A stretch of 64,000 bases of DNA from IMG/VR virus record IMGVR_UViG_2693429668_000006; one strand, 5' to 3'. This document shows, one piece after another, positions 18,871 through 64,000 of the stretch (position 1 is its first letter; each line of letters begins with the position of its first letter). This DNA is from a virus (taxonomy: Duplodnaviria > Heunggongvirae > Uroviricota > Caudoviricetes). A program made the translations under genes and the position numbers. The notes beneath the pieces were generated by a model. The model ran no database searches, was not told the DNA's origin, and worked only from the letters and a program-made list of their open reading frames with translations.

Positions 18871-19230
18871 TCACCCTTTCTTCATCAACTCGCGTTTAAT
18901 TTCATCGGTACGCATCGTGACATCGGCAGCTGTGATCGCCTCGTTAAGTTTCACGATGTCCTCGATTTCCTGCGGTGTCTTCTCCGCAAGATGGAAAATA
19001 GCAGCACGAATCACGTCAGAACGAGTGAACTTCTCGAAGCGAGGGATGAACTTCATCATCTCCAGCAGTTCGAAGTATTCGTCCTCCAGTGACATTGTGC
19101 GGCTTTTAATTTTCTCTTTGCCACGAGTCGGGCGTCCCTGTGGTCTGACTGGTTGGCGCAAAGGAGTTGTGTTCTTAGCCGGTGCATCAGGCTCTTTGCG
19201 CTTTGCTAGGTCACCCATTTTCATGGACAT
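18871..19230 (-). CDS. small partition protein (ParG-like ribbon-helix-helix centromere-binding protein)
   Basis: 119 aa, immediately downstream of ParA with overlapping start/stop; RHH-like C-terminal segment. Confidence 0.45.
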   Translation of the reverse strand: MSMKMGDLAKRKEPDAPAKNTTPLRQPVRPQGRPTRGKEKIKSRTMSLEDEYFELLEMMKFIPRFEKFTRSDVIRAAIFHLAEKTPQEIEDIVKLNEAITAADVTMRTDEIKRELMKKG

Positions 19231-19898
19231 TATTCTTCTTCCTCCAGACTCAACAGATAATCTACAAATTCTTCAAACTCGGCTTCCGCCTTTTTGTCGC
19301 GCTCGCTACCGGTCATTTCAAAGATAGAACGACCAGACTCTTCCGCATCATCATAGACGTTGCGGTTATATAGATTGACTGGCGCAGACTCGATGCCAAA
19401 CGTCTCAACAATCTCTTTAGCCGCCAGAATGCGAGACACTTGTGATGGCAAAGCCGGGCACTGGTTCATGACCGCGCGGACCTTCACTTTATCGTTTACA
19501 TTACGAACATTGTCGATAATAGGATCGATGTCACGCAGAGATTTCAAATCACGACGCTTAGGACGAAGCGGGATAATGATAACGTCGGCCATCAGCATCG
19601 CTTGTCGCTGAATTTCGGAGTCAAAGCCACCAGCATCTACCACTACAAACTCAGCTCTACCCTGAAGCGATTTTAGGTGCTTAATGATGTCATCCTGAAC
19701 GTATGCAAAAGGAATCAGCTCAAGGTCTTCGTTCTGTCGACGGTCTTCACACCAGCTTGTTGTCGTGCGCTGAATATCTATATCAGTGATATAAACCTTC
19801 TTCTTCTTTTTGACTTTCAGGCAAACGGCAATTTGCTGGGCAACGGTGGATTTGCCAGGCCCGCCCTTTGTGCCGCCAACCACAAAGATCTTGGTCAT
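19230..19898 (-). CDS. ParA-family partition ATPase
   Basis: Deviant Walker A VVGGTKGGPGKST at N-terminus; 222 aa. Confidence 0.75.
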   Translation of the reverse strand: MTKIFVVGGTKGGPGKSTVAQQIAVCLKVKKKKKVYITDIDIQRTTTSWCEDRRQNEDLELIPFAYVQDDIIKHLKSLQGRAEFVVVDAGGFDSEIQRQAMLMADVIIIPLRPKRRDLKSLRDIDPIIDNVRNVNDKVKVRAVMNQCPALPSQVSRILAAKEIVETFGIESAPVNLYNRNVYDDAEESGRSIFEMTGSERDKKAEAEFEEFVDYLLSLEEEE

Positions 19899-49518: not shown

Positions 49519-50409
49519 TTATGCCGGTAAAGCAATTTCTAACGGTTTATCCAAAGGTTGTTTGTCGAATGCCAGCAGTGGCAGCGTGTCAGGCAGTCGA
49601 CGGCCAAAGTCAGGGTTTCGGTACACACCATACAACGGAGACGTAAAGCTCAGGTTGTGAATGTCCTTGAGCAGCTTCACAATGCTGGCCTCGTCCACCA
49701 GACTGTCGGCAATGTCCTGAATCGTCGTGCCACGATTCCGCCCAGCTTTTGCCAGGGAACTGTTCTTATGGTAGTCCGCCACCAAATCGCGCAGCGCACG
49801 GCGACGACGAGACTCGCTCATAGCGAACAACTCTTTGACGATCGCCTCGTTATCACCCGGGTCGGAGCGGAAATGGCGCTGGAACACACGCAGTGCACTT
49901 TCATAGCTCTTCGGTCGCTCAGGGCGGATGAACTTAAACCCTGCTTTCATGGCGAAGGGATTGTATTTGCTCATCGAGGACTGGATCTCAATGATTGGCC
50001 GGTCATGCATCCTGCTAACCAGGTTAATCATTCTATAAGAGACGCCTACGCCACGATACTGAGTATCCACAACTGAGCGACTGATCACCGCAAAGTTGTT
50101 ATTCACGTACCGACCCCAGTACTGGTTAGCCACGGTGGTATTAGTGGTTGGTTTCAACTTAGGAAACATGCGGTGGCGAGGTGCCAACAGTAGTTTCGGG
50201 TAAGCCATAACCACGACGCCCACCAGACGGTCATCAAGTTCGCAGCGATAGTAAGTTGGCGCGAAAGGTTTGCCGTCTGTTTTGTAGTGAAGCGACTTAA
50301 GAGCGTGCCAGTCCTCTACAGTTCCCTTTGTAACAGTCATTCGCTCCAGAAAGTCCAGATGACGCGGAAACTCTTCAGGGCGGTAGCGTTTAATGATGAT
50401 GTCCGTCAT
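49519..50409 (-). CDS. GNAT-fold acetyltransferase-like protein
   Basis: Motif A-like VVDTQYRGVGVSYRMINL (Q-x-x-G-x-G); 296 aa; start overlaps stop of ABC ATPase gene. Confidence 0.5.
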   Translation of the reverse strand: MTDIIIKRYRPEEFPRHLDFLERMTVTKGTVEDWHALKSLHYKTDGKPFAPTYYRCELDDRLVGVVVMAYPKLLLAPRHRMFPKLKPTTNTTVANQYWGRYVNNNFAVISRSVVDTQYRGVGVSYRMINLVSRMHDRPIIEIQSSMSKYNPFAMKAGFKFIRPERPKSYESALRVFQRHFRSDPGDNEAIVKELFAMSESRRRRALRDLVADYHKNSSLAKAGRNRGTTIQDIADSLVDEASIVKLLKDIHNLSFTSPLYGVYRNPDFGRRLPDTLPLLAFDKQPLDKPLEIALPA

Positions 50410-51071
50410 GAATGGACCTCATCATGACTACCATTGTGATATTCCACCTTCACGCGTTCTTTGTAGTGCTTGGTGATCTGCATATCAGGGCGCAGCGCGT
50501 TCTTCAGGTCTTCGTGAGTCGTCGCCACCATTACCGTCGCACCAACCTTTCGAGCGGCACGCTGGAGGTTAGACGCCACAACCTGAGCGGTTACACGGTC
50601 GAGAACAGCGCCGAACTCGTCAGCAGCCCATACTTTAGCGCCTGACTCAATCAGTTTGGCAATCTTGAGACGATATTTCTGGCCGTCTGACATTTCAGAA
50701 GGCTTGCGAACAAACAGATATGCATCGTTCAGACCAGCCATAGATAACAACCCAAGCGCATCACTGGTCGTTTTGCCCAACTGATCGATGACGTTAACCT
50801 CATTATCGAAGGTAAAATCATCGATGGAGGCTACAGACAGCCCTTCATCCTTCATCTGTCGTTGCAACTCGCGCAGCACAACGGATTTGCCGGAACCGGA
50901 TTGGCCGGTGATGTACACCACATCGCCCTGCTTCACTTCCAGCTCCAGATTGTCGTAAAGCGTCCACTCTTTTTCGTCCAGGCCAAGCCCGAACGACTCA
51001 GCGATTTCCAACGTGCGCGTGGTTTTATTTACGCGTGTCTGAAACGATACGTTGATGATGTATTTGCTCAT
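50406..51071 (-). CDS. ABC-type ATPase (soluble, single nucleotide-binding domain)
   Basis: Walker A GQSGSGKS, signature MSDGQKYRL, Walker B KVWAADEF, H-loop VATTHE. Confidence 0.65.
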   Translation of the reverse strand: MSKYIINVSFQTRVNKTTRTLEIAESFGLGLDEKEWTLYDNLELEVKQGDVVYITGQSGSGKSVVLRELQRQMKDEGLSVASIDDFTFDNEVNVIDQLGKTTSDALGLLSMAGLNDAYLFVRKPSEMSDGQKYRLKIAKLIESGAKVWAADEFGAVLDRVTAQVVASNLQRAARKVGATVMVATTHEDLKNALRPDMQITKHYKERVKVEYHNGSHDEVHS

Positions 51072-51736
51072 GCAGCCATCTCCCCGGAAGAGATCTTCTC
51101 CGCATATGCCACAAATGCGTCTACCCCGCTTTCTCCCGTCATTTCTTCCATATGGGCAAGCAAATCACCAACAACAATGGCAGAGCCAGCAGGGAGCGTT
51201 TTAAAGCCCAATACGTCGACAACACGTACTTCTTCCGCTGCAACTTCACGACTGATCTCGGTGTGTTCATCCTTCTGTCGTTTAGTTTCTTCGCCAAGAT
51301 CGATAACTAGCGAGTCGGTGTCCATTTCTTCTGTCATACTGCCAACGAGAACATTCAACTCACGCTCTTCAAAGCCGAAAACCTCGATATCGTCCAGAAC
51401 AAGCGACTCAAGCTCTTTCTGTAGCTTAATTGCATCGTAATCAATGCTGGCAAGTCGGTTATCTTCAAGGCGCTTCGCACGAACCTCGTCATCACTGAGA
51501 TCATCGCGAACAATAACCGGTACGCGCTCAAGTCCAGCAAAAATTGCAGCCTCACGGCGGCCGTGGCCAGTAATAATTACGTCGTTCTTATCGACCGTAA
51601 TTGGCTGGTCAAATCCGCGCTTTTTAATGGCTGCGGCTAGATCTCGGATCTGCTGTTCATCATGCTTTTTGGCATTCATCTCATAGGGAATAAGATCTGC
51701 CGGGTCGCGATATACGATTTCAAACTTTTTGGTCAT
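51068..51736 (-). CDS. ParB-like nuclease domain protein
   Basis: ParB/Srx motif ITGHGRREAA; acidic C-terminus; start set at ATG 51736 overlapping upstream stop. Confidence 0.55.
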   Translation of the reverse strand: MTKKFEIVYRDPADLIPYEMNAKKHDEQQIRDLAAAIKKRGFDQPITVDKNDVIITGHGRREAAIFAGLERVPVIVRDDLSDDEVRAKRLEDNRLASIDYDAIKLQKELESLVLDDIEVFGFEERELNVLVGSMTEEMDTDSLVIDLGEETKRQKDEHTEISREVAAEEVRVVDVLGFKTLPAGSAIVVGDLLAHMEEMTGESGVDAFVAYAEKISSGEMAA

Positions 51737-52434
51737 TACATACGCTCCTTGTAGTAGTCGACCAGCCACACCAGAGCCTCACCAGCGTTCTCCATTTCAT
51801 TACCGGTGTTAATAGCCTGCTCTTTGATGATGTTTTTTATGGTTTCTGCAACACGATCTGACGCATCGAAAGTTACTTTGAAGCGCATGGTCTGATGTTC
51901 CGCACCCACACGTTCGGTTTTCTCTCGTTTGTCGGTATCGACAGGCTCATCACTACCACGAGACAACGCCTCCAGTGCTTCAAGGTCGATTGCCGCCTCT
52001 TTTGCTAAAACCATCGAGATTTCGTCGTCATACGGAGCGATTTCAGACAGTTGATAGTCAAGTTCTGACTGAATTTCTTCAATGAAGCGTTGCAATGCGA
52101 TTTGGTCGTCTTCACCGTATCGCTCGTTGTCCACCAGTGACATCTGTTTAGCTACGACATCGCTAATTTTGCCCACAGAAAGCACCGGAACCGTTGAAAT
52201 TCCTTGCTCAATAGCAGCACGCCAGCGATGTTCGCCGCCGAGGATTTCAAAAAATCCATCTTCAAGTTCACGAGCCAAAATTGGCTTAAAAAAGCCCAAT
52301 TTTTCGATAGAACCTTTCAGTTTTTCAAAATTCTGCGCACCAACCGAATTGGTGTTCCAGGTATTCGGGCGAAGGTTGGCAACATCAACCTGCAAAATCG
52401 TGATTTTTACATCCATTTTATTGCTACAATCCAC
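51736..52434 (-). CDS. ParB-like nuclease domain protein (second copy)
   Basis: ParB/Srx motif ILGGEHRWRAA. Confidence 0.55.
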   Translation of the reverse strand: MDCSNKMDVKITILQVDVANLRPNTWNTNSVGAQNFEKLKGSIEKLGFFKPILARELEDGFFEILGGEHRWRAAIEQGISTVPVLSVGKISDVVAKQMSLVDNERYGEDDQIALQRFIEEIQSELDYQLSEIAPYDDEISMVLAKEAAIDLEALEALSRGSDEPVDTDKREKTERVGAEHQTMRFKVTFDASDRVAETIKNIIKEQAINTGNEMENAGEALVWLVDYYKERM

Positions 52435-54365: not shown

Positions 54366-54830
54366 ATGAAGTCTCCCATACTGTTCACTTTCTGTTCTAA
54401 AACTATCATGAAATACTCGCTTCTCCCTCTACTAACGTTACCAGTGTTGATGCTTGCCGCGTGCCAATCACACCCAATATCAATCCATGACGCCAAACCA
54501 GCACCGCAGGCCAAAGTGTTAAAGTATCAAAGCGCAGCGCCAGCTACGTTGGTGGTAATGAGAGACACAGGTTTTGTAGGAGCTGGATGTGATGCTTCCA
54601 TTTTCATCAACGGCGAAACTGTCGCAAAACTGGCTACAGGCGAAAAAGCGACTTTCCATTTAAATGCCGGAGAATTAATTGTGGGTGCATCTCTTGAAGG
54701 TGCAGGTTTATGTGCTCTAAACCCCGCTCGTCAAGAGCGAGAAACGACTCTGAAGAATGGAGACACAAAAGCGTTCAGGGTGTTTACCAGCAATTCTGGT
54801 GACATCGACATTCTGCCAACAACTCTGTGA
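54366..54830 (+). CDS. lipoprotein
   Basis: Signal peptide with lipobox LMLAAC. Confidence 0.5.
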   Translation: MKSPILFTFCSKTIMKYSLLPLLTLPVLMLAACQSHPISIHDAKPAPQAKVLKYQSAAPATLVVMRDTGFVGAGCDASIFINGETVAKLATGEKATFHLNAGELIVGASLEGAGLCALNPARQERETTLKNGDTKAFRVFTSNSGDIDILPTTL

Positions 54831-54834
54831 TGAC

Positions 54835-55359
54835 ATGACAACCAAAGATATTACCTACGGTATCCAAGCTGAACTCTGGCCGCGAGATTACACTAACGTT
54901 GAAAAACTACTGATGTTCTGGCGCAGAGAACAAATTCCTGTAAGGGTCACTCTCGAAGATGGCCAGGCGTTTTGCATGTACGTTTATGGCCTCATGCCAT
55001 CTCGTAACAAAGTTGACCTTTGCCCAGCCCCTTTTGACAAAGAAAATCGTATAAGGCTCCCACTTGAACGCATTAGTACAATTGAATCAGGTGTGGTTGA
55101 CAGTATCGCTCACGATTTCAAAGGTCGACTAACAGTTCACCCTGATTATGTCGATAATCGGCCATCACGCCGCGATTTTTTTGCAATTTGCAACCAAGCC
55201 TACAAAGCAAACAAATCTATAAGGGTGTACATGGCGGATGGCCGTGAAATTGAGGGGGTGTCAGCAGGCGCAGATGCTTGTCAGGTTACACTACGTGTCG
55301 AGAACGGTAGAAAAATAGTTGTTTTGTTCGATTGGGTTGAACGAATTTTGCCTTTTTGA
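54835..55359 (+). CDS. hypothetical protein; start uncertain
   Basis: ORF track (54757 start overlaps previous gene); internal ATG at 54835. Confidence 0.4.
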   Translation: MTTKDITYGIQAELWPRDYTNVEKLLMFWRREQIPVRVTLEDGQAFCMYVYGLMPSRNKVDLCPAPFDKENRIRLPLERISTIESGVVDSIAHDFKGRLTVHPDYVDNRPSRRDFFAICNQAYKANKSIRVYMADGREIEGVSAGADACQVTLRVENGRKIVVLFDWVERILPF

Positions 55360-57108: not shown

Positions 57109-57113
57109 AATCG

Positions 57114-57139
57114 AGCGCCCACTATGGGCGCTTTTTTCG
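57114..57139 (+). terminator. rho-independent terminator
   Basis: Hairpin AGCGCCCACTATGGGCGCT followed by TTTTTCG; identical hairpin at 56618..56636. Confidence 0.55.
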
Positions 57140-57159
57140 TTTCCAATACTTCCACAATA

Positions 57160-57186
57160 ACGCGCCATTGATGGCGCGTTTTTTAT
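57160..57186 (+). terminator. rho-independent terminator (second, tandem)
   Basis: Hairpin ACGCGCCATTGATGGCGCGT followed by TTTTTTA. Confidence 0.5.
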
Positions 57187-57600
57187 TGTCTTTAACTCAC
57201 TCCAACAACATAAAAATAAGCGCCAAAATAACGCCATAAACGCGCTTTTATATCCTTACCAGTACATACCCATTACTTAACACATTAACGCGCTTAAAAC
57301 GCGTTATATTGCGCTATAGCGTATGGTTAATCATTGGCTTTTAGTCTTGCTATGTGATCCGCGTTTATTTGTCGGCGCGGATCGGCATTTTGTTTTGTTC
57401 CGTATCCGCTCGCGTATTATGTGCGCGTGATTTTTCACATAATCACACCACTTAATCACGTATGTGATTATGCTACGAAAGAAATCTGGATGTCTCAGGC
57501 GACGAAAGTCATCATAATTTTCCCCGCTCGCCTGTCCGACAACCGCTGGTTGGATTCCACCAGCTTCCCGATGTTTTTTTCTACATAAAGGCGAATGCAG

Positions 57601-57710
57601 CCGTTTCCCGAAAAAATCCTGGCCGTTTCCCGTCGGCTCATGAATACGTTCCTCGCCGTTTCTGAAAATTTCCCTGCGGCAGCTGGTGGCTATAGAGAAA
57701 GGGCCGTTTC
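57601..57710. repeat. iteron cluster 1 (four GCCGTTTC(C/T) repeats)
   Basis: CCGTTTC at 57601, 57623, 57656, 57704. Confidence 0.55.
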
Positions 57711-57722
57711 TGGCCCTCTTCT
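57697..57722 (-). terminator. rho-independent terminator after gene 57726..58208
   Basis: Minus-strand hairpin GGGCCAGAAACGGCCC followed by TTTCTCT. Confidence 0.45.
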
Positions 57723-57725
57723 CAG

Positions 57726-58208
57726 TTACACGCCATCAAGGATGTGGATGCGGTTGCTTGCGTATACATTCAGCATAAAGTTAGCGCAAAACAGTTTCCA
57801 TGTATCAACGCCAGCGGTATACGTAATGTTTTTGCATTTAATCGCATTGTTGGCGATCCGCATCCCCTGCGATACTGCTTCATCGTCGGAAAATTTGAAC
57901 GACGATTGAGTTTTAATCCAGACAGAAATCTGCGTAGCGAACTCAATCAGCTTGGACTGGCAGAATCGCCCGGAGCGCACCGGAAAGACGAACGTTCCGA
58001 ATCCAGAATTTACCACATATGCTTTCTCAAATACCCGCGAGTAACGACGATTGCCAATGATGTCGCGTGCAATAATGCATTTTTCTTGTGCTGACAGTTC
58101 TACCGTCTCATTGTCGCGCCATGCACCAAGTACTCGTTTTTCAATGTCAGAGAACGTTACAGCGATATTGCCATGTGCGGGTGCGTTTACAGTAGCGATA
58201 AAATTCAT
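57726..58208 (-). CDS. hypothetical protein (accessory array)
   Basis: ORF track, 160 aa; own promoter/operator motif at 58227..58260. Confidence 0.5.
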   Translation of the reverse strand: MNFIATVNAPAHGNIAVTFSDIEKRVLGAWRDNETVELSAQEKCIIARDIIGNRRYSRVFEKAYVVNSGFGTFVFPVRSGRFCQSKLIEFATQISVWIKTQSSFKFSDDEAVSQGMRIANNAIKCKNITYTAGVDTWKLFCANFMLNVYASNRIHILDGV

Positions 58209-60043: not shown

Positions 60044-60355
60044 TCAGGCTATTGCCATCACTGATGCTCTCTGAATCTCTTGCTGGGCCACGCGGTTAAC
60101 TTCCATCAAGGCCAGTTCGAGCTGATGTTCCGGCCACATTCTTTGAAATGCCACCCAGCCTTTTCCACGCTGGCGACGAACATTCATTACATAACGAGTA
60201 AAGGTGTTTTTATCGAAAGACACCGCTGTTTCACGGAACAGACGAATAGAGGTTCCATTGGCAACGATGTCCAGCAAAGTTAATTGAGCAACCAGCGCAG
60301 GCTTCTCTTTTCTCTTCTGGTCTTTGTCCAGACCAAGAACCAATGATTTTTTCAT
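60044..60355 (-). CDS. hypothetical basic protein, possible DNA-binding (accessory array)
   Basis: ATG at 60355 with SD GGAG; 103 aa. Confidence 0.4.
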   Translation of the reverse strand: MKKSLVLGLDKDQKRKEKPALVAQLTLLDIVANGTSIRLFRETAVSFDKNTFTRYVMNVRRQRGKGWVAFQRMWPEHQLELALMEVNRVAQQEIQRASVMAIA

Positions 60356-60508: not shown

Positions 60509-60838
60509 TTACGCGAATACCTCAAGAAACTCCTGAACGTCCCAATGCTGGACGAGGTGAAGATAGACCTTAGAAATCACGTCATTTTCGCTATCGCATG
60601 TGAAGTAGTACTTCTGGCTGCGGTTGTATGTGTCCACACAAAATTCGCTCATATCCATAAAGTCAGCATCTTCACCCATGTCGCAAATCATCAAAGCAGG
60701 TGCATCATCACGAGTCATCAGCTCAAGCACCCACCGCGAATTGATCAGAGTGGAAGACCAACCTTCCAGCTCATAGAACTGGTCAAACTCTTTTTGAGTC
60801 AATTTCTTGATTTGGTTGATGTCGATATGTGCAAACAT
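60509..60838 (-). CDS. hypothetical acidic protein (accessory array)
   Basis: ATG at 60838 with SD AAGGA; the first ATG in the ORF lies inside the conserved operator motif. Confidence 0.4.
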   Translation of the reverse strand: MFAHIDINQIKKLTQKEFDQFYELEGWSSTLINSRWVLELMTRDDAPALMICDMGEDADFMDMSEFCVDTYNRSQKYYFTCDSENDVISKVYLHLVQHWDVQEFLEVFA

Positions 60839-61202
60839 AAAGCAATCCTTAAACAACATGTTTTCTTGATGGTGTTATTATCGCAATAACGCACAGGCGA
60901 AAAAGGATTTTATTCCGGTGAATGTGGTTTTGGCAGTGAGTTTTCAGGTTCAGTACCGAGAACACTTTTTACATTATTCTGATTTAGTGGCCGAAGGTGG
61001 CTGGTGGGCAGAATAATCATCTCCCCGAAAACCTACTGAAATCGATTGTGACCCGTTGGCTGTCTGGCACAATTACGCTGTAGCTGGGCATTCAGAGGGA
61101 ATCCAGCGGTAAGTAAGTTCGCCTGCACGTGAGCGCCTCTCTTCTTCCCGCACATTACAGGTGGGTAGCCGCAACTCTCCCTCACGCTATACCGGTACGC
61201 CG

Positions 61203-61337
61203 CCGTTCCTGAACCGGCATCGAGCCTTTTCCCGAAACCCACACAGGCAACTCGACCGTTTCCCTGAAAACCTCCAGCCGTTCCCCGAAGGCAACCCAGC
61301 CGTTTCTGTAGCGGGATGCAACCTTTTCCCTGTATGG
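61203..61337. repeat. iteron cluster 2 (six CCGTTTCCC-type repeats phased about 21-22 bp)
   Basis: Repeats start at 61203, 61225, 61257, 61278, 61299, 61322. Confidence 0.6.
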
Positions 61338-62400
61338 ACCGAAGGCTGACCGTAGGGGTGTTACGGGGGATAAAATCAGGAGTTGAATAAATACGAAAAA
61401 GGAGGCGACACCCCTCCTTCCCTCCCCACTTATACATACCTGGCTTCTTCGCTATACATGTTGTGTTTTATCTGTCTCAACCTCTCTATAGGCGTTAATG
61501 CTCACTCCTTCCAGAATGTTCTATACGGCGACTATTTCTGTTGGTGAATTGGGCGTGTTGTTCTCTCTGTCGGTGTAAATGGTTTCGTTCGTTTTGCGGT
61601 GGTTCTTCTATGGGGTGTTCTCGTCGTTTTGGTGATTGTTCTTCTCCGTGTATGGAGTAATGGCAGGTGGGCGATTGCTTTCGTTATTGTGTTTGAGTTG
61701 TTTGTCTGGAGTGTGTGAAAGGCTTTTGTAGTTATTCGTGTATTGGGTAATGGCGTTTCCCGTGATTGTTATGTTTCGTGTCTTTTGGGATTGAGAGAAA
61801 CCTTGCGGTTACAGGCTTCGTTGGGGTTTCAGCGGTTCAGGTGTTTCTTCGCTGTTTGGGTAATGGCGTGTCGTGGGTATCGCGCGTATGAATGTTTTCG
61901 GATTGCCTGTGAAAGTTAGGTTGGTTGTCCGGTAGCCTGGGGAGAAGAGGTGGGTCTTTTCGGTAGCCTGCCATAAAGAGGTTGGTTGTTTTGGGGAATG
62001 GCATGTGTGTTATTTAGTTGTTTTGTTATGCCTGAAAATAAGTTGTTTATATGGTTGTGTAACGCAACGGGAACGATTTTGAGCGTGTGTTTTTGTTGGT
62101 AGTGTGTTGGGTCGTCTGTGGTGAAAATTGGACGCTGTGGCGCTGTCTGCTGCGTAGAATTACGGGTATAAGCAGTGATGTGTGAAAACGTCAATTTTTT
62201 AGACCAAATCGGATGAAAGCGTTGATGTTTCGTTGATCTGTTATTCAGTTGTTTTCTTGATTGTATAAACAACTATAACTTATTGATATTTAAGGATGTG
62301 ATTGCGGGTATGGAAGGGGAGTAGTGGCGATCAACGGATTCTTATAGAAAAGAATCAAATTGTGACCGCCATTATCAACGGTTTGAATCTGTTTGCAGAT

Positions 62401-62700
62401 TTACCAGTTCCAGCACTCAAGCCCTTCAACGACCGGCGCACCACAATCAAAATGTACAGAGTCAAAGCCTACATCAAGTACTTTCTGAATGTTAGCAATC
62501 GCGCCTTCGGATATACCATATCGACGCAAGTCGTCTTTCCAGACATCATCCTGTAACCCGGCGTGGACAATACAACCGCCGTCAATTTGCGAAACCCAAT
62601 CCAGCTCATTGCTTGCGATCATGAATCGGCGAGCATCTTCCTCTGATGTATGAGATGAGCTGATCAATGCCACCTGGTAGGCTTGGGTAATGTTCAACAT
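62401..62700 (-). CDS. hypothetical protein (last gene of element before host junction)
   Basis: ATG at 62700 with SD GGAG; operator-type motifs at 62713..62779 upstream. Confidence 0.4.
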   Translation of the reverse strand: MLNITQAYQVALISSSHTSEEDARRFMIASNELDWVSQIDGGCIVHAGLQDDVWKDDLRRYGISEGAIANIQKVLDVGFDSVHFDCGAPVVEGLECWNW

Positions 62701-62861: not shown

Positions 62862-64000
62862 TTACTTAACCTGGTGGCCAGGTTTAGCACCAGCATCCGG
62901 GCTTAACAGGAAGATATCTTTCCCACCGGGGCCAGCAGCCATCACCATACCTTCGGAGATACCGAAGCGCATTTTACGCGGAGCCAGGTTAGCCACCATA
63001 ATGGTGTGACGACCAATCAGTGCCTGTGGGTCTGGATAAGCAGAACGGATGCCTGAGAAGACATTGCGTTTTTCACCACCTAGATCCAGCGTCAGACGCA
63101 GCAGTTTGTCAGAGCCTTCAACAAACTCCGCGTTTTCAATCAGCGCCACGCGCAGGTCAACTTTGGCGAAGTCATCAAAGGTGATGGTTTCCTGAATCGG
63201 ATCGTCTGCCAGCGGGCCAGTAACTGGCGCGGCAGTGGCTTTCACTTCTTCTTTAGAGGCTTCCACCAGTGCTTCAACCTGCTTCATGTCGATGCGGTTA
63301 TACAGTGCTTTGAACGGATTAACTTTGTGCGCCAGCAGCGGTTGCTGGATACCATCCCAGGTCAGTTCTGTATTCAGGAATGCTTCTGCACGTTCAGTCA
63401 GTTTCGGCAGTACCGGCTTCAGGTACGTCATCAGCACGCGGAACAGGTTAATGCCCATAGAGCAAATCGCCTGCAGATCGGCATCGCGTCCTTCCTGCTT
63501 CGCCACCACCCACGGAGCCTGTTCATCGACATAGCGGTTAGCCAGGTCAGCCAATGCCATGATTTCACGGATAGCTTTACCAAATTCGCGGCTTTCCCAT
63601 GCTTCGCCAATCACTTCAGCGGCATCAGTAAAGGTTTTGTACAGTTGCGGGTCAGCCAGTTCGCTTGCCAGCACGCCGTCAAAACGCTTGTTGATAAAGC
63701 CTGCATTACGGGAGGCCAGGTTAACCACTTTGTTCACGATATCGGCATTCACGCGCTGAACGAAATCCTCCAGGTTGAGATCGATATCATCAATGCGCGA
63801 AGAGAGTTTCGCAGTGTAGTAGTAACGCAGGCTGTCAGCGTCAAAATGATTCAGCCAGGTGCTGGCTTTAATAAAGGTGCCGCGAGACTTGGACATCTTT
63901 GCGCCGTTCACCGTCACATAGCCATGAACAAACAGGTTGGTCGGCTTGCGGAAGTTGCTGCCTTCCAGCATGGCAGGCCAGAACAGGCTGTGGAAGTAAA
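62862..64000 (-). CDS. metG: methionyl-tRNA synthetase, C-terminal part (5' end beyond window)
   Basis: Translation ends ...[23 protein letters not shown] and matches the enterobacterial MetG anticodon-binding and C-terminal tRNA-binding domains. Confidence 0.9.

What the first reader, a model, noticed from the sequence alone, without database searches (positions are those of the whole stretch)
61195..61340. Six phased iterons (CCGTTTCCC-type, 21-22 bp spacing): candidate replication origin or centromere
Repeats CCGTTCCTGAACC, CCTTTTCCCGAAACC, CCGTTTCCCTGAAAACC, CCGTTCCCCGAAGG, CCGTTTCTGTAGC and CCTTTTCCCTGTATGG start at 61203, 61225, 61257, 61278, 61299 and 61322. Spacing is about two helical turns, as in iteron-type plasmid origins and some phage origins. 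The ORF-track ORF 61033..61437 covering them looks spurious. No adjacent Rep-like gene was recognised, so the cognate binding protein is unknown.
Basis: seen in the sequence. Interest (0 to 1): 0.6.

Follow-up and report, generated by a model that had tools for sequence, protein, structure and literature searches.

The report
Phased protein-binding repeats in a phage-plasmid
Six short DNA repeats spaced exactly two helical turns apart are real, non-coding and conserved across the SSU5/pHCM2 family of phage-plasmids, so they are almost certainly docking sites for an unidentified DNA-binding protein, but they are not the plasmid's known replication origin.

Summary
The window is an E. coli SSU5/pHCM2-type phage-plasmid. 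The six repeats exist, with core CC(G/T)TT(T/C)C(C/T) and starts at 61203, 61225, 61256, 61278, 61300 and 61322. Spacing is 22, 31, 22, 22, 22 bp, and all copies lie on the + strand.

They sit in a conserved, unannotated 1.5 kb gap (60860-62400). Across eight lineages the cores are better conserved than the spacers (84% vs 61% pairwise identity). The 22-bp spacing is strict, and copy number changes by whole units, which frameshifts the overlapping ORF.

A second conserved array of 3-4 copies lies at 57601-57712. The two arrays bracket a block of small genes in every relative sampled with enough flank.

The plasmid's real origin lies 34 kb away and uses unrelated RepFIB iterons (GTATGCTGTCAGCGGT). 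The gap has no DnaA box and no AT-rich unwinding element. It is silent in lysogen RNA-seq and shows no RNA structure.

Verdict: an iteron-like array of protein-binding sites belonging to the phage backbone, binder unknown. My ranking of its role:
- phage-mode replication origin or replication control, about 0.3
- looping regulator of the bracketed genes, about 0.2
- centromere, about 0.2

I found no paper describing it in the library searched. Interest is moderate.

The parts
61203..61211 (+). repeat 1, CCGTTCCTG (unit CCGTTCCTGAACC contains the palindrome GTTC-CT-GAAC)
   Evidence: sequence; matrix score 13.9; conserved position in relatives
61225..61233 (+). repeat 2, CCTTTTCCC (unit CCTTTTCCCGAAACC)
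   Evidence: invariant GCC(G/T)TTTCCCG block in 13 aligned relatives
61256..61264 (+). repeat 3, CCGTTTCCC (unit CCGTTTCCCTGAAAACC); lies 31 bp after repeat 2, or 22 bp in the Klebsiella lineage
61278..61286 (+). repeat 4, CCGTTCCCC
61300..61308 (+). repeat 5, CCGTTTCTG
61322..61330 (+). repeat 6, CCTTTTCCC
57601..57712 (+). second array of the same motif: CCGTTTCCC at 57601 and 57623, CCGTTTCTG at 57656 and 57704. The last copy lies inside the terminator hairpin of the 160-aa gene. Spacing is 22, 33, 48 bp.
   Evidence: present at the syntenic place in every relative with enough flank; retained in pMT1
61020..61034 (+). conserved half-unit TCTCCCCGAAAACCT, matching the right half of the repeat unit
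   Evidence: D9; conserved block
61000..61007 (+). intergenic Chi site GCTGGTGG, conserved in most lineages. A second + strand Chi at 57682 follows the second array and a - strand Chi at 57557 precedes it.
61396..61422 (-). terminator-like hairpin followed by a T run on the - strand, separating the GT-skewed part of the gap from the array
   Evidence: By my reading of the alignment, relatives keep the hairpin through G-T pairs that are valid only on the - strand.
60850..60893 (-). promoter/operator cassette TAAACAnnnTGTTTTCTTGnTGGTGTTATTATCGCAATAA, directly upstream of the first gene of the bracketed block. The palindrome AAACA-N3-TGTTT recurs at 8 places in the window.
61440..62300 (.). GT-skewed, multi-repeat non-coding part of the same conserved gap: GTATGGAGTAATGGC-type repeats, 2 x GTAGCCTG..AGAGGTGGGT, and TTGTTTTCTT
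61033..61437 (-). spurious ORF of 134 aa overlapping the array, annotated as CYRAN_104 in phage Cyrano
57726..60838 (-). block of small - strand genes of unknown function bracketed by the two arrays. Only the 160-aa gene (57726..58208) and the 103-aa gene (60044..60355) remain in the shortest version.

Best explanation
The six repeats are a phased array of binding sites, all on one face of the double helix, for a sequence-specific DNA-binding protein of the SSU5-type phage backbone. Bound copies would build a cooperative nucleoprotein complex. That complex can pair or loop with the smaller array of the same motif 3.6 kb to the left.

My committed reading of its role is that this is the recognition part of the element's phage-mode (lytic) replication origin or replication-control locus. 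The second array would act like P4 crr or P1 incA. This role is separate from the RepFIB origin used for plasmid maintenance.

Shown here: the array is real, phased, non-coding, under selection at the core positions, restricted to two loci on one strand, and not part of the RepFIB origin.

Inferred: that a protein binds it (about 0.8), and that the role is replication (about 0.3).
For: - Enrichment and clustering of the motif.
- The 22-bp spacing is strict: 181 adjacent pairs in 56 distinct arrays are exactly 22 bp apart, 32 pairs are 31 bp apart, and the rest are multiples.
- Core positions are 84% pairwise identical across 8 lineages against 61% for spacers, permutation p < 1e-4.
- Indels of 9, 22 and 44 bp keep the helical phase and change copy number by whole units.
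- Both arrays are present, on the + strand only, in every relative with enough flank. There are almost no other matches in more than 10 kb of flanks.
- The element encodes its own DnaB-like helicase, primase, Pol III alpha, ligase, RNase H and UvsW-like helicase. No repeat array lies next to those genes.
- The gap is not transcribed above background in a lysogen.
- pMT1 has lost the main array together with the phage helicase and primase genes.
- From my own knowledge, two-turn spacing with a second distant array matches iteron origins: P1 oriR/incA, F incB/incC, P4 ori/crr. The RepFIB locus of this same plasmid shows 21-bp spacing.
Against: - No initiator gene was recognised. The two conserved proteins between the arrays give confident models with no winged-helix or other Rep-like fold.
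- There is no DnaA box, only 2 GATC sites in 1.65 kb, and no strongly AT-rich stretch next to the array.
- Cumulative GC skew shows no extremum here.
- Phages such as N15 use one initiator for both lifestyles (my own knowledge), so a separate lytic origin is not required.
- pMT1 lost the type Ib par genes and the 103-aa gene in the same rearrangements, so that loss does not discriminate between roles.
- Nothing here tests replication directly.
Confidence: 0.3

Rival explanations
1. The arrays form a regulatory boundary by looping. A backbone-encoded regulator, possibly the 103-aa or the 160-aa protein encoded between them, binds both arrays and loops out the 1.5-4.3 kb block of small genes. 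This would control or insulate the block's expression, much as lambda CI bridges OL and OR.
For: - The arrays bracket the block in every relative, while the distance between them and the gene content vary.
- The main array lies between a - strand terminator and the block's promoter cassette.
- The second array starts right at the terminator of the last gene.
- Block genes are partly expressed and change with condition in LF82.
Against: - The nearest repeat is about 300 bp from the promoter cassette.
- Six plus four asymmetric direct repeats is more than typical operators have.
- No sigma-70 promoter overlaps either array.
Confidence: 0.2
2. The arrays are the partition centromere for the element's orphan type Ib ParA (19230..19898) and its 119-aa partner (18871..19230). 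They would be placed far from the par operon, as the centromeres of phage N15 are.
For: - The ParA (PF09140, PF13614) and its small partner have no repeat array upstream or downstream, either here or in pCAV1099-111.
- The partner shows a weak ribbon-helix-helix-like match.
- The partner is at least 89% identical in most plasmids of the family searched, paralleling the conserved motif.
- pMT1 lacks both this par system and the main array, and uses a P7-type ParAB instead.
- The region is transcriptionally silent in lysogens.
Against: - From my own knowledge, type Ib centromeres normally sit at the par promoter and autoregulate it. The only conserved element upstream of parA is the global AAACA-N3-TGTTT cassette.
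- Known ribbon-helix-helix centromeres use contiguous repeats of 4-11 bp, not a 22-bp spacing.
- In pCAV1099-111 the partner is only 50% identical, yet the motif is unchanged and merely degenerate in number.
- pMT1 keeps the second array without this par system.
Confidence: 0.2
3. The repeats act at the RNA level, as a repeated motif in a non-coding RNA or UTR. Examples would be a protein sponge with GGGAAA(A/C)GG motifs on the - strand, a target of the FljA-like RNA-binding protein encoded at 54757..55359, or a C-rich Rho loading zone.
For: - An FljA-family protein (PF03614, E 2.5e-84) is encoded 6 kb away.
- The + strand of the array is C-rich (GC skew -0.29).
- In SSU5 and pHCM2 a small + strand gene lies just upstream of the array.
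Against: - Both strands fold worse than shuffled controls (z +1.8 and +1.3).
- The consensus folding energy over 8 lineages is only about -9 kcal/mol.
- There is no Rfam match.
- The ORF covering the array (CYRAN_104) is at background in ten LF82 RNA-seq samples.
- Strict 22-bp spacing and phase-preserving indels fit a DNA helix, not an RNA.
Confidence: 0.05
4. The repeats are extra iterons of the plasmid's RepFIB replicon, either part of the maintenance origin or a copy-control locus.
For: Only the two-turn spacing and the fact that this plasmid family does use iterons.
Against: - The RepFIB iterons are GTATGCTGTCAGCGGT, with no similarity to the repeats, and lie 34 kb away.
- The gap is conserved in relatives with other replicon types.
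- pMT1 and IS-disrupted plasmids exist as complete plasmid records without an intact gap.
Confidence: 0.02
5. The region is protein-coding (ORF 61033..61437 on the - strand, or 61161..61349 on the + strand), or the repeats are functionless duplication remnants.
For: A 134-aa ORF exists and is annotated in phage Cyrano as CYRAN_104.
Against: - The reading frame is not preserved in relatives.
- Indels of 9, 22 and 44 bp occur within it.
- Expression is at background.
- Against mere remnants: cores are selectively conserved over spacers, and both arrays are kept in SSU5/pHCM2-, Klebsiella- and E. coli-type lineages at 65-72% overall identity.
Confidence: 0.05

Closest known systems
Iteron arrays of theta-replicating plasmids (RepFIB, P1 oriR/incA, F incB/incC, RK2, R6K)
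   Same: There are five to six direct repeats at two-helical-turn spacing, with a conserved core, variable spacers and a single orientation. A second array lies a few kb away, with genes in between. Copy number varies by whole units.
   Different: No Rep-family initiator lies between or beside the arrays. There is no DnaA box and no AT-rich unwinding element. The motif is unrelated to the element's own RepFIB iterons. The array is dispensable for plasmid maintenance in pMT1.
Bipartite origin of satellite phage P4 (ori plus crr, TGTTCACC repeats bound by the alpha protein)
   Same: Two clusters of a short asymmetric repeat lie kilobases apart on a phage-plasmid-like element. The larger cluster has six copies.
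   Different: P4 uses one primase-helicase-initiator protein, whereas here primase and helicase are separate genes 45 kb away. The repeat sequence is different. Function was not tested here. This comparison rests on my own knowledge of P4.
Phage lambda origin (four 19-bp iterons, an AT-rich region and a palindrome)
   Same: Spacing is about 22 bp. The unit TTTCCCTGAAAAC resembles the lambda half-site TCCCTCAAAAC. A moderately AT-rich 40 bp stretch and a hairpin follow the array (61365-61422).
   Different: Lambda iterons are full palindromes inside the O gene. Here the units are mostly asymmetric and intergenic, and no O-like gene was found. The sequence resemblance is recalled from memory and may be chance.
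Plasmid centromeres made of direct repeats (pB171 parC1/parC2, R1 parC, pSM19035 parS, N15 dispersed centromeres)
   Same: Arrays of direct repeats occur in two clusters that flank genes. A ParA-type ATPase with a small partner is encoded on the element, and its centromere is unidentified.
   Different: The arrays lie 41 kb from the par operon. The 22-bp spacing is much longer than that of known ribbon-helix-helix centromeres. No autoregulatory position is apparent.
Long-range operator pairs of temperate phages (lambda OL/OR bridged by CI)
   Same: Clusters of sites about two turns apart, separated by a few kb, bracket a gene block that is partly expressed in the lysogen.
   Different: Lambda operators are palindromes that overlap promoters. 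Here the sites are direct repeats 300 bp or more from the nearest promoter-like cassette.

Membership tests
Iteron-type plasmid replication origin | Three or more direct repeats of about 17-22 bp at roughly two-helical-turn spacing | tested here: met
   Six copies at 22/31/22/22/22 bp. The spacing is 22 bp for 181 adjacent pairs in 56 distinct arrays from relatives.
Iteron-type plasmid replication origin | A cognate Rep initiator gene adjacent to or flanked by the iterons | tested here: not met
   No Rep family was found in the neighbouring proteins by Pfam, PHROGs or NCBIfam. The RepB gene lies 34 kb away with different iterons. Models of the 103-aa and 160-aa proteins show no Rep-like fold.
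Iteron-type plasmid replication origin | An AT-rich DNA-unwinding element and DnaA box(es) next to the iterons | tested here: not met
   No TTWTNCACA match in 60800-62450, only 2 GATC sites, and GC of 47-59% in 200-bp windows around the array.
Iteron-type plasmid replication origin | Supports autonomous replication and exerts incompatibility | not testable with these tools
   Needs cloning into a conditional vector. Indirect evidence: pMT1 and IS-disrupted relatives exist as complete plasmid records without an intact gap.
Phage lytic origin (lambda or P4 type) | Repeats bound by a phage-encoded initiator, with a replication start mapped there after induction | not testable with these tools
   Phage replisome genes are present on the element. 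No array lies next to them. No induction sequencing data are available.
Partition centromere (type Ib ParA with a small centromere-binding protein) | An array of repeats bound by the centromere-binding protein | tested here: inconclusive
   An array and a ParA/partner pair both exist. No binding data are available. In pCAV1099-111 the motif is unchanged although the partner is only 50% identical.
Partition centromere (type Ib ParA with a small centromere-binding protein) | The centromere lies at or next to the par operon and autoregulates it | tested here: not met
   The arrays are 38-41 kb from parA. The region upstream of parA holds only the global cassette.
Structured or sponge non-coding RNA | A stable or conserved secondary structure, an abundant transcript, and a match to a described RNA family | tested here: not met
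   Folding z-scores are +1.8 and +1.3. Consensus folding energy is about -9 kcal/mol. No relevant Rfam match. CYRAN_104 is at background in RNA-seq.
Protein-coding gene (ORF 61033..61437) | The reading frame is conserved among relatives | tested here: not met
   Indels of 9, 22 and 44 bp occur. The tblastn similarity is split over frames -1, -2 and -3 in relatives.

The most novel reading that the evidence does not exclude
The two CCGTTTCCC arrays, together with the adjoining silent, GT-skewed, multi-repeat 1 kb, form the so far unmapped phage-mode replication origin of the SSU5/pHCM2/pKpn phage-plasmids. It would be bipartite, like P4 ori/crr. It would be recognised by an initiator with no similarity to known Rep families, for example one of the family-restricted 103-aa or 160-aa proteins encoded between the arrays.
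Probability: 0.2. Interest if true: 0.6.

Novelty: new member of a known kind. Interest (0 to 1): 0.45.

Why it matters
SSU5-type phage-plasmids are common in clinical E. coli, Klebsiella, Salmonella and Enterobacter. The gap matches 839 plasmid records in PLSDB and 243 of 5426 complete E. coli genomes. These elements also carry cargo such as dfrA51 and restriction-modification systems.

How they switch from plasmid maintenance to phage replication is not known, and no cis-acting site other than the RepFIB origin has been pointed out. This pair of phased arrays and the 1.5 kb repeat-rich gap around the larger one are clear candidates for such a site. They give concrete DNA baits for finding the protein that controls replication, segregation or the bracketed gene block. 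A defined binder and site would also provide a handle for curing or tracking these plasmids.

Tried and rejected
- **Plasmid origin.** Rejected, because the RepFIB iterons are different and distant.
- **Known RNA family or structured RNA.** No Rfam hit, folding no better than shuffles, and negligible consensus structure.
- **Single-strand promoter or primosome-site hairpins in the GT-skewed part.** Single-stranded DNA folding z is about 0 on both strands.
- **Coding.** Rejected.
- **Origin signals.** No DnaA boxes, IHF sites only at the edges of the gap, few GATC sites, and GC skew dominated by gene orientation.
- **Intrinsic curvature.** Local values are average. The 146-bp end-to-end ratio of 0.899 is only the 5.5th percentile, so the bend is modest and not diagnostic. 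The wedge parameters were recalled from memory.
- **Finding the binder by fold.** The 103-aa and 160-aa models are confident (pLDDT 81.5 and 84.8) but have no diagnostic match. The afdb50 library was unavailable. Sequence searches against PDB, Pfam, NCBIfam and PHROGs gave nothing useful.
- **Finding the arrays outside the family to exploit co-occurrence.** A pattern scan of IMG/VR returned only SSU5-like elements plus chance or coding hits.
- **Co-variation of motif and candidate binders.** In pCAV1099-111 all candidates diverge together. In pMT1 several candidates are lost together. Neither case discriminates.
- **Fragments of the gap in large Klebsiella plasmids.** These are IS-borne pieces carrying phage-plasmid cargo and are uninformative.
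- **Literature.** No paper in the library describes the region. One 2026 preprint on phage-plasmid heteroresistance could not be opened.

Full report
**What the window is.** The region 60900-62300 is 100% identical to the E. coli plasmid p19KM1803_1 (NZ_CP151018.1, 112.6 kb). It is at least 95% identical to more than 170 other E. coli plasmids of about 110 kb, and never matches a chromosome. The plasmid's annotation shows a siphovirus structural module, a phage replisome (DnaB-like helicase, primase, Pol III alpha, ligase, RNase H), nucleotide-metabolism genes, captured host metG and apbC, and a RepB-family plasmid initiator. Phage SSU5, S. Typhi pHCM2 and E. coli phage Cyrano all match the same stretch. 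The window is therefore an SSU5-supercommunity phage-plasmid as defined in PMC7969092.

**The observation.** The six repeats are there. Their true starts are 61203, 61225, 61256, 61278, 61300 and 61322, giving spacings of 22, 31, 22, 22 and 22 bp. CCKTTYCCC occurs 6 times in the window against 1.38 expected, and none of 100 shuffles reached 6. Four of these matches lie in the array and the other two are 22 bp apart at 57601/57623. All are on the + strand. A matrix built from the six units finds no comparable site elsewhere in the 112 kb plasmid. Only a 9-12 bp core is shared between units, which is why Tandem Repeats Finder misses the array.

**Context.** The array lies in an unannotated 1.5 kb gap (60860-62400) between small - strand genes. 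The gap is conserved at 65-72% identity in Klebsiella, Salmonella (SSU5, pHCM2), Enterobacter, Citrobacter and Cronobacter elements. It matches 839 plasmid records and 12 phage records.

From left to right, the alignment of 13 relatives shows:
- a near-invariant cassette, TAAACAnnnTGTTTTCTTGnTGGTGTTATTATCGCAATAA, directly upstream of the first gene on the left;
- a conserved block with a Chi site at 61000;
- the repeat array;
- a moderately AT-rich 40 bp stretch and a hairpin that reads as an intrinsic terminator on the - strand;
- about 850 bp with extreme strand skew (GC skew up to +0.55, AT skew down to -0.57), carrying further repeat families.

**Evidence that the repeats are selected as DNA sites.**
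- Across eight lineages the nine core columns of each unit are 84% pairwise identical and the spacers 61% (permutation p < 1e-4).
- In 56 distinct arrays collected from plasmids and IMG/VR contigs, 181 adjacent pairs are exactly 22 bp apart and 32 pairs are 31 bp apart. The rest are multiples of these. The modal copy number is six, with a range of 3-7.
- Natural variants differ by deletions of 22, 22 and 44 bp and by a 9-bp indel. These are whole units or nearly one helical turn.
- Such indels frameshift the overlapping ORF 61033..61437. Its similarity in relatives is spread over different reading frames.

**A second array.** The same motif forms a smaller array at 57601-57712, with spacings of 22, 33 and 48 bp. 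Its last copy lies inside the terminator hairpin of the 160-aa gene. In every relative with enough flank both arrays are present, on the + strand only. There are essentially no other matches in more than 10 kb of flanks. The second array and its surroundings, including Chi sites on either side, are highly conserved.

The distance between the arrays varies from 1.5 to 4.3 kb, because the bracketed block of small - strand genes varies in content. Only the 160-aa (phrog_1641) and 103-aa (phrog_5125) genes remain in the shortest version. A pattern scan of IMG/VR found such arrays only in SSU5-like elements.

**Not the plasmid origin.**
- The RepB gene lies about 34 kb away, outside the window. It is flanked by 5 + 11 copies of GTATGCTGTCAGCGGT at 21-bp spacing.
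- The gap is conserved in relatives typed as IncFIB, rep_cluster_488 and rep_cluster_763, and in degenerate form in rep_cluster_711.
- Y. pestis pMT1 keeps the second array but has lost the main array and the whole gap next to an IS1541.
- IS1, IS3 and IS21 elements interrupt or abut the gap in natural plasmids.
- The gap has no DnaA box, only two GATC sites and no strongly AT-rich stretch.
- Cumulative GC skew follows gene orientation and shows nothing here.

**Not RNA.**
- Both strands of the array fold worse than dinucleotide shuffles (z +1.8 and +1.3).
- The consensus structure over eight lineages has an energy of only about -9 kcal/mol.
- Rfam gives nothing relevant.
- In the LF82 RNA-seq table of PMC9928086, the ORF covering the array (CYRAN_104) is at background. 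The ORF covering the GT-skewed part (CYRAN_103) is at the detection floor in most of ten samples, although the upstream gene CYRAN_102 is expressed.
- The GT-skewed part also has no unusual single-stranded DNA folding.

**Search for the binder.**
- Neighbouring proteins have no informative family matches.
- The 103-aa and 160-aa proteins occur only in SSU5-like elements.
- The element has a type Ib ParA with a 119-aa partner that is weakly ribbon-helix-helix-like and very conserved. No repeat array lies next to that operon, here or in pCAV1099-111.
- pCAV1099-111 and pMT1 do not discriminate between candidates, because the candidates diverge or disappear together.

**Interpretation.** The data show a phased, one-strand, two-locus array of conserved short sites in transcriptionally silent DNA. 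Its indels preserve the helical face. I put the chance that these are protein-binding sites forming a cooperative complex at about 0.8. Their role is inferred, and I rank the options as follows.

- **Phage-mode origin or replication-control locus, about 0.3.** The geometry is classical for iterons. A second distant array recalls P1 incA or P4 crr. The element has its own replisome with no other array nearby. The surrounding gap is unusually repeat-rich. Against this, there is no initiator, no unwinding element and no direct test.
- **Looping regulator or insulator of the bracketed block, about 0.2.**
- **Centromere for the orphan ParA system, about 0.2.** This is weakened because the only conserved element at the par promoter is the global AAACA-N3-TGTTT cassette. 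It is also weakened because pMT1 keeps the second array without that par system.
- **RNA-level, RepFIB-related, coding and neutral readings are each 0.05 or less.**

**Novelty and interest.** No paper in the library describes this region. It is an undescribed instance of a familiar kind of element, a phased repeat array for a DNA-binding protein. It sits in a clinically widespread family whose cis-acting sites are otherwise unmapped. The finding is solid and the function is open. Interest is moderate, 0.45.

Noticed in passing
window 57601-57712: A second conserved array of the same CCGTTTCCC/CCGTTTCTG motif (3-4 copies). It sits in the convergent intergenic region at the other end of the small-gene block. 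It is present in all relatives sampled and is retained in Y. pestis pMT1.
   Followed up: yes
window, whole; for example 61000-61007 (+), 57682-57689 (+), 57557-57564 (-): Chi (GCTGGTGG) is about 10-fold over-represented: 14 sites against 1.4 expected. Sites are mostly on the - strand below 50 kb and mostly on the + strand above 53 kb. Several intergenic Chi sites next to the two arrays are conserved across lineages. This suggests the element relies on Chi, rather than on a RecBCD inhibitor, to protect linear DNA.
   Followed up: partly
window 16167, 19934, 49088, 58714, 60367, 60851, 62714, 62765: The palindrome AAACA-N3-TGTTT recurs at 8 places in the window. It is usually followed by TCTTG and a GTTATTATCGCAATAA-like element. 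At several of them (helicase gene, parA, putative small terminase gene, small-gene block) it lies just upstream of a - strand gene start. It looks like a shared operator or 5'-UTR cassette, possibly the master repressor's site.
   Followed up: partly
window 61440-62300: An 850-bp non-coding stretch with extreme strand skew (G+T-rich on the + strand). It carries conserved repeats such as TTCTTCTCCGTGTATGGAGTAATGGC and 2 x GTAGCCTG..AGAGGTGGGT. It is not transcribed in a lysogen, has no structure signal and no conserved reading frame. Its function is unknown.
   Followed up: partly
window 54757-55359 (+): A gene of the FljA family (PF03614, repressor of phase-1 flagellin, E 2.5e-84). FljA is an mRNA-binding translational repressor in Salmonella. 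Here the gene is part of the conserved backbone and is also present in pMT1 and pCAV1099-111.
   Followed up: no
window 62862-64000 and beyond (record NZ_CP151018.1 80827-84118): Full-length copies of the host genes metG (methionyl-tRNA synthetase) and apbC are carried on the phage-plasmid, next to the non-coding gap. The same arrangement occurs in phage Cyrano.
   Followed up: no
window 18871-19898 (-): A type Ib ParA (222 aa) with a 119-aa partner that is weakly ribbon-helix-helix-like and at least 89% identical in most plasmids of the family searched. No recognisable centromere repeats lie beside the operon.
   Followed up: partly
window 51068-52434 (-) and 49519-51071 (-): Two tandem ParB_N-domain proteins are followed by two ABC/SMC-like ATPase genes, just upstream of the putative small terminase gene. 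The cluster is conserved in pMT1 and pCAV1099-111 and its role is unknown.
   Followed up: no
window 57110-57194: Two strong terminator hairpins end the + strand operon (GCGCCCACTATGGGCGC followed by T6, and GCGCCATTGATGGCGCG followed by T6). They account for the weak sub-threshold Rfam sRNA hits there.
   Followed up: no
L018 (IMG/VR 2606217110_000013), about window 61360; plasmids NZ_CP083480.1 and NZ_CP019002.1: IS21-, IS1- and IS3-family elements are inserted in or directly abut the 1.5 kb gap in natural relatives. An intact gap is therefore not needed for these elements to persist as plasmids.
   Followed up: partly
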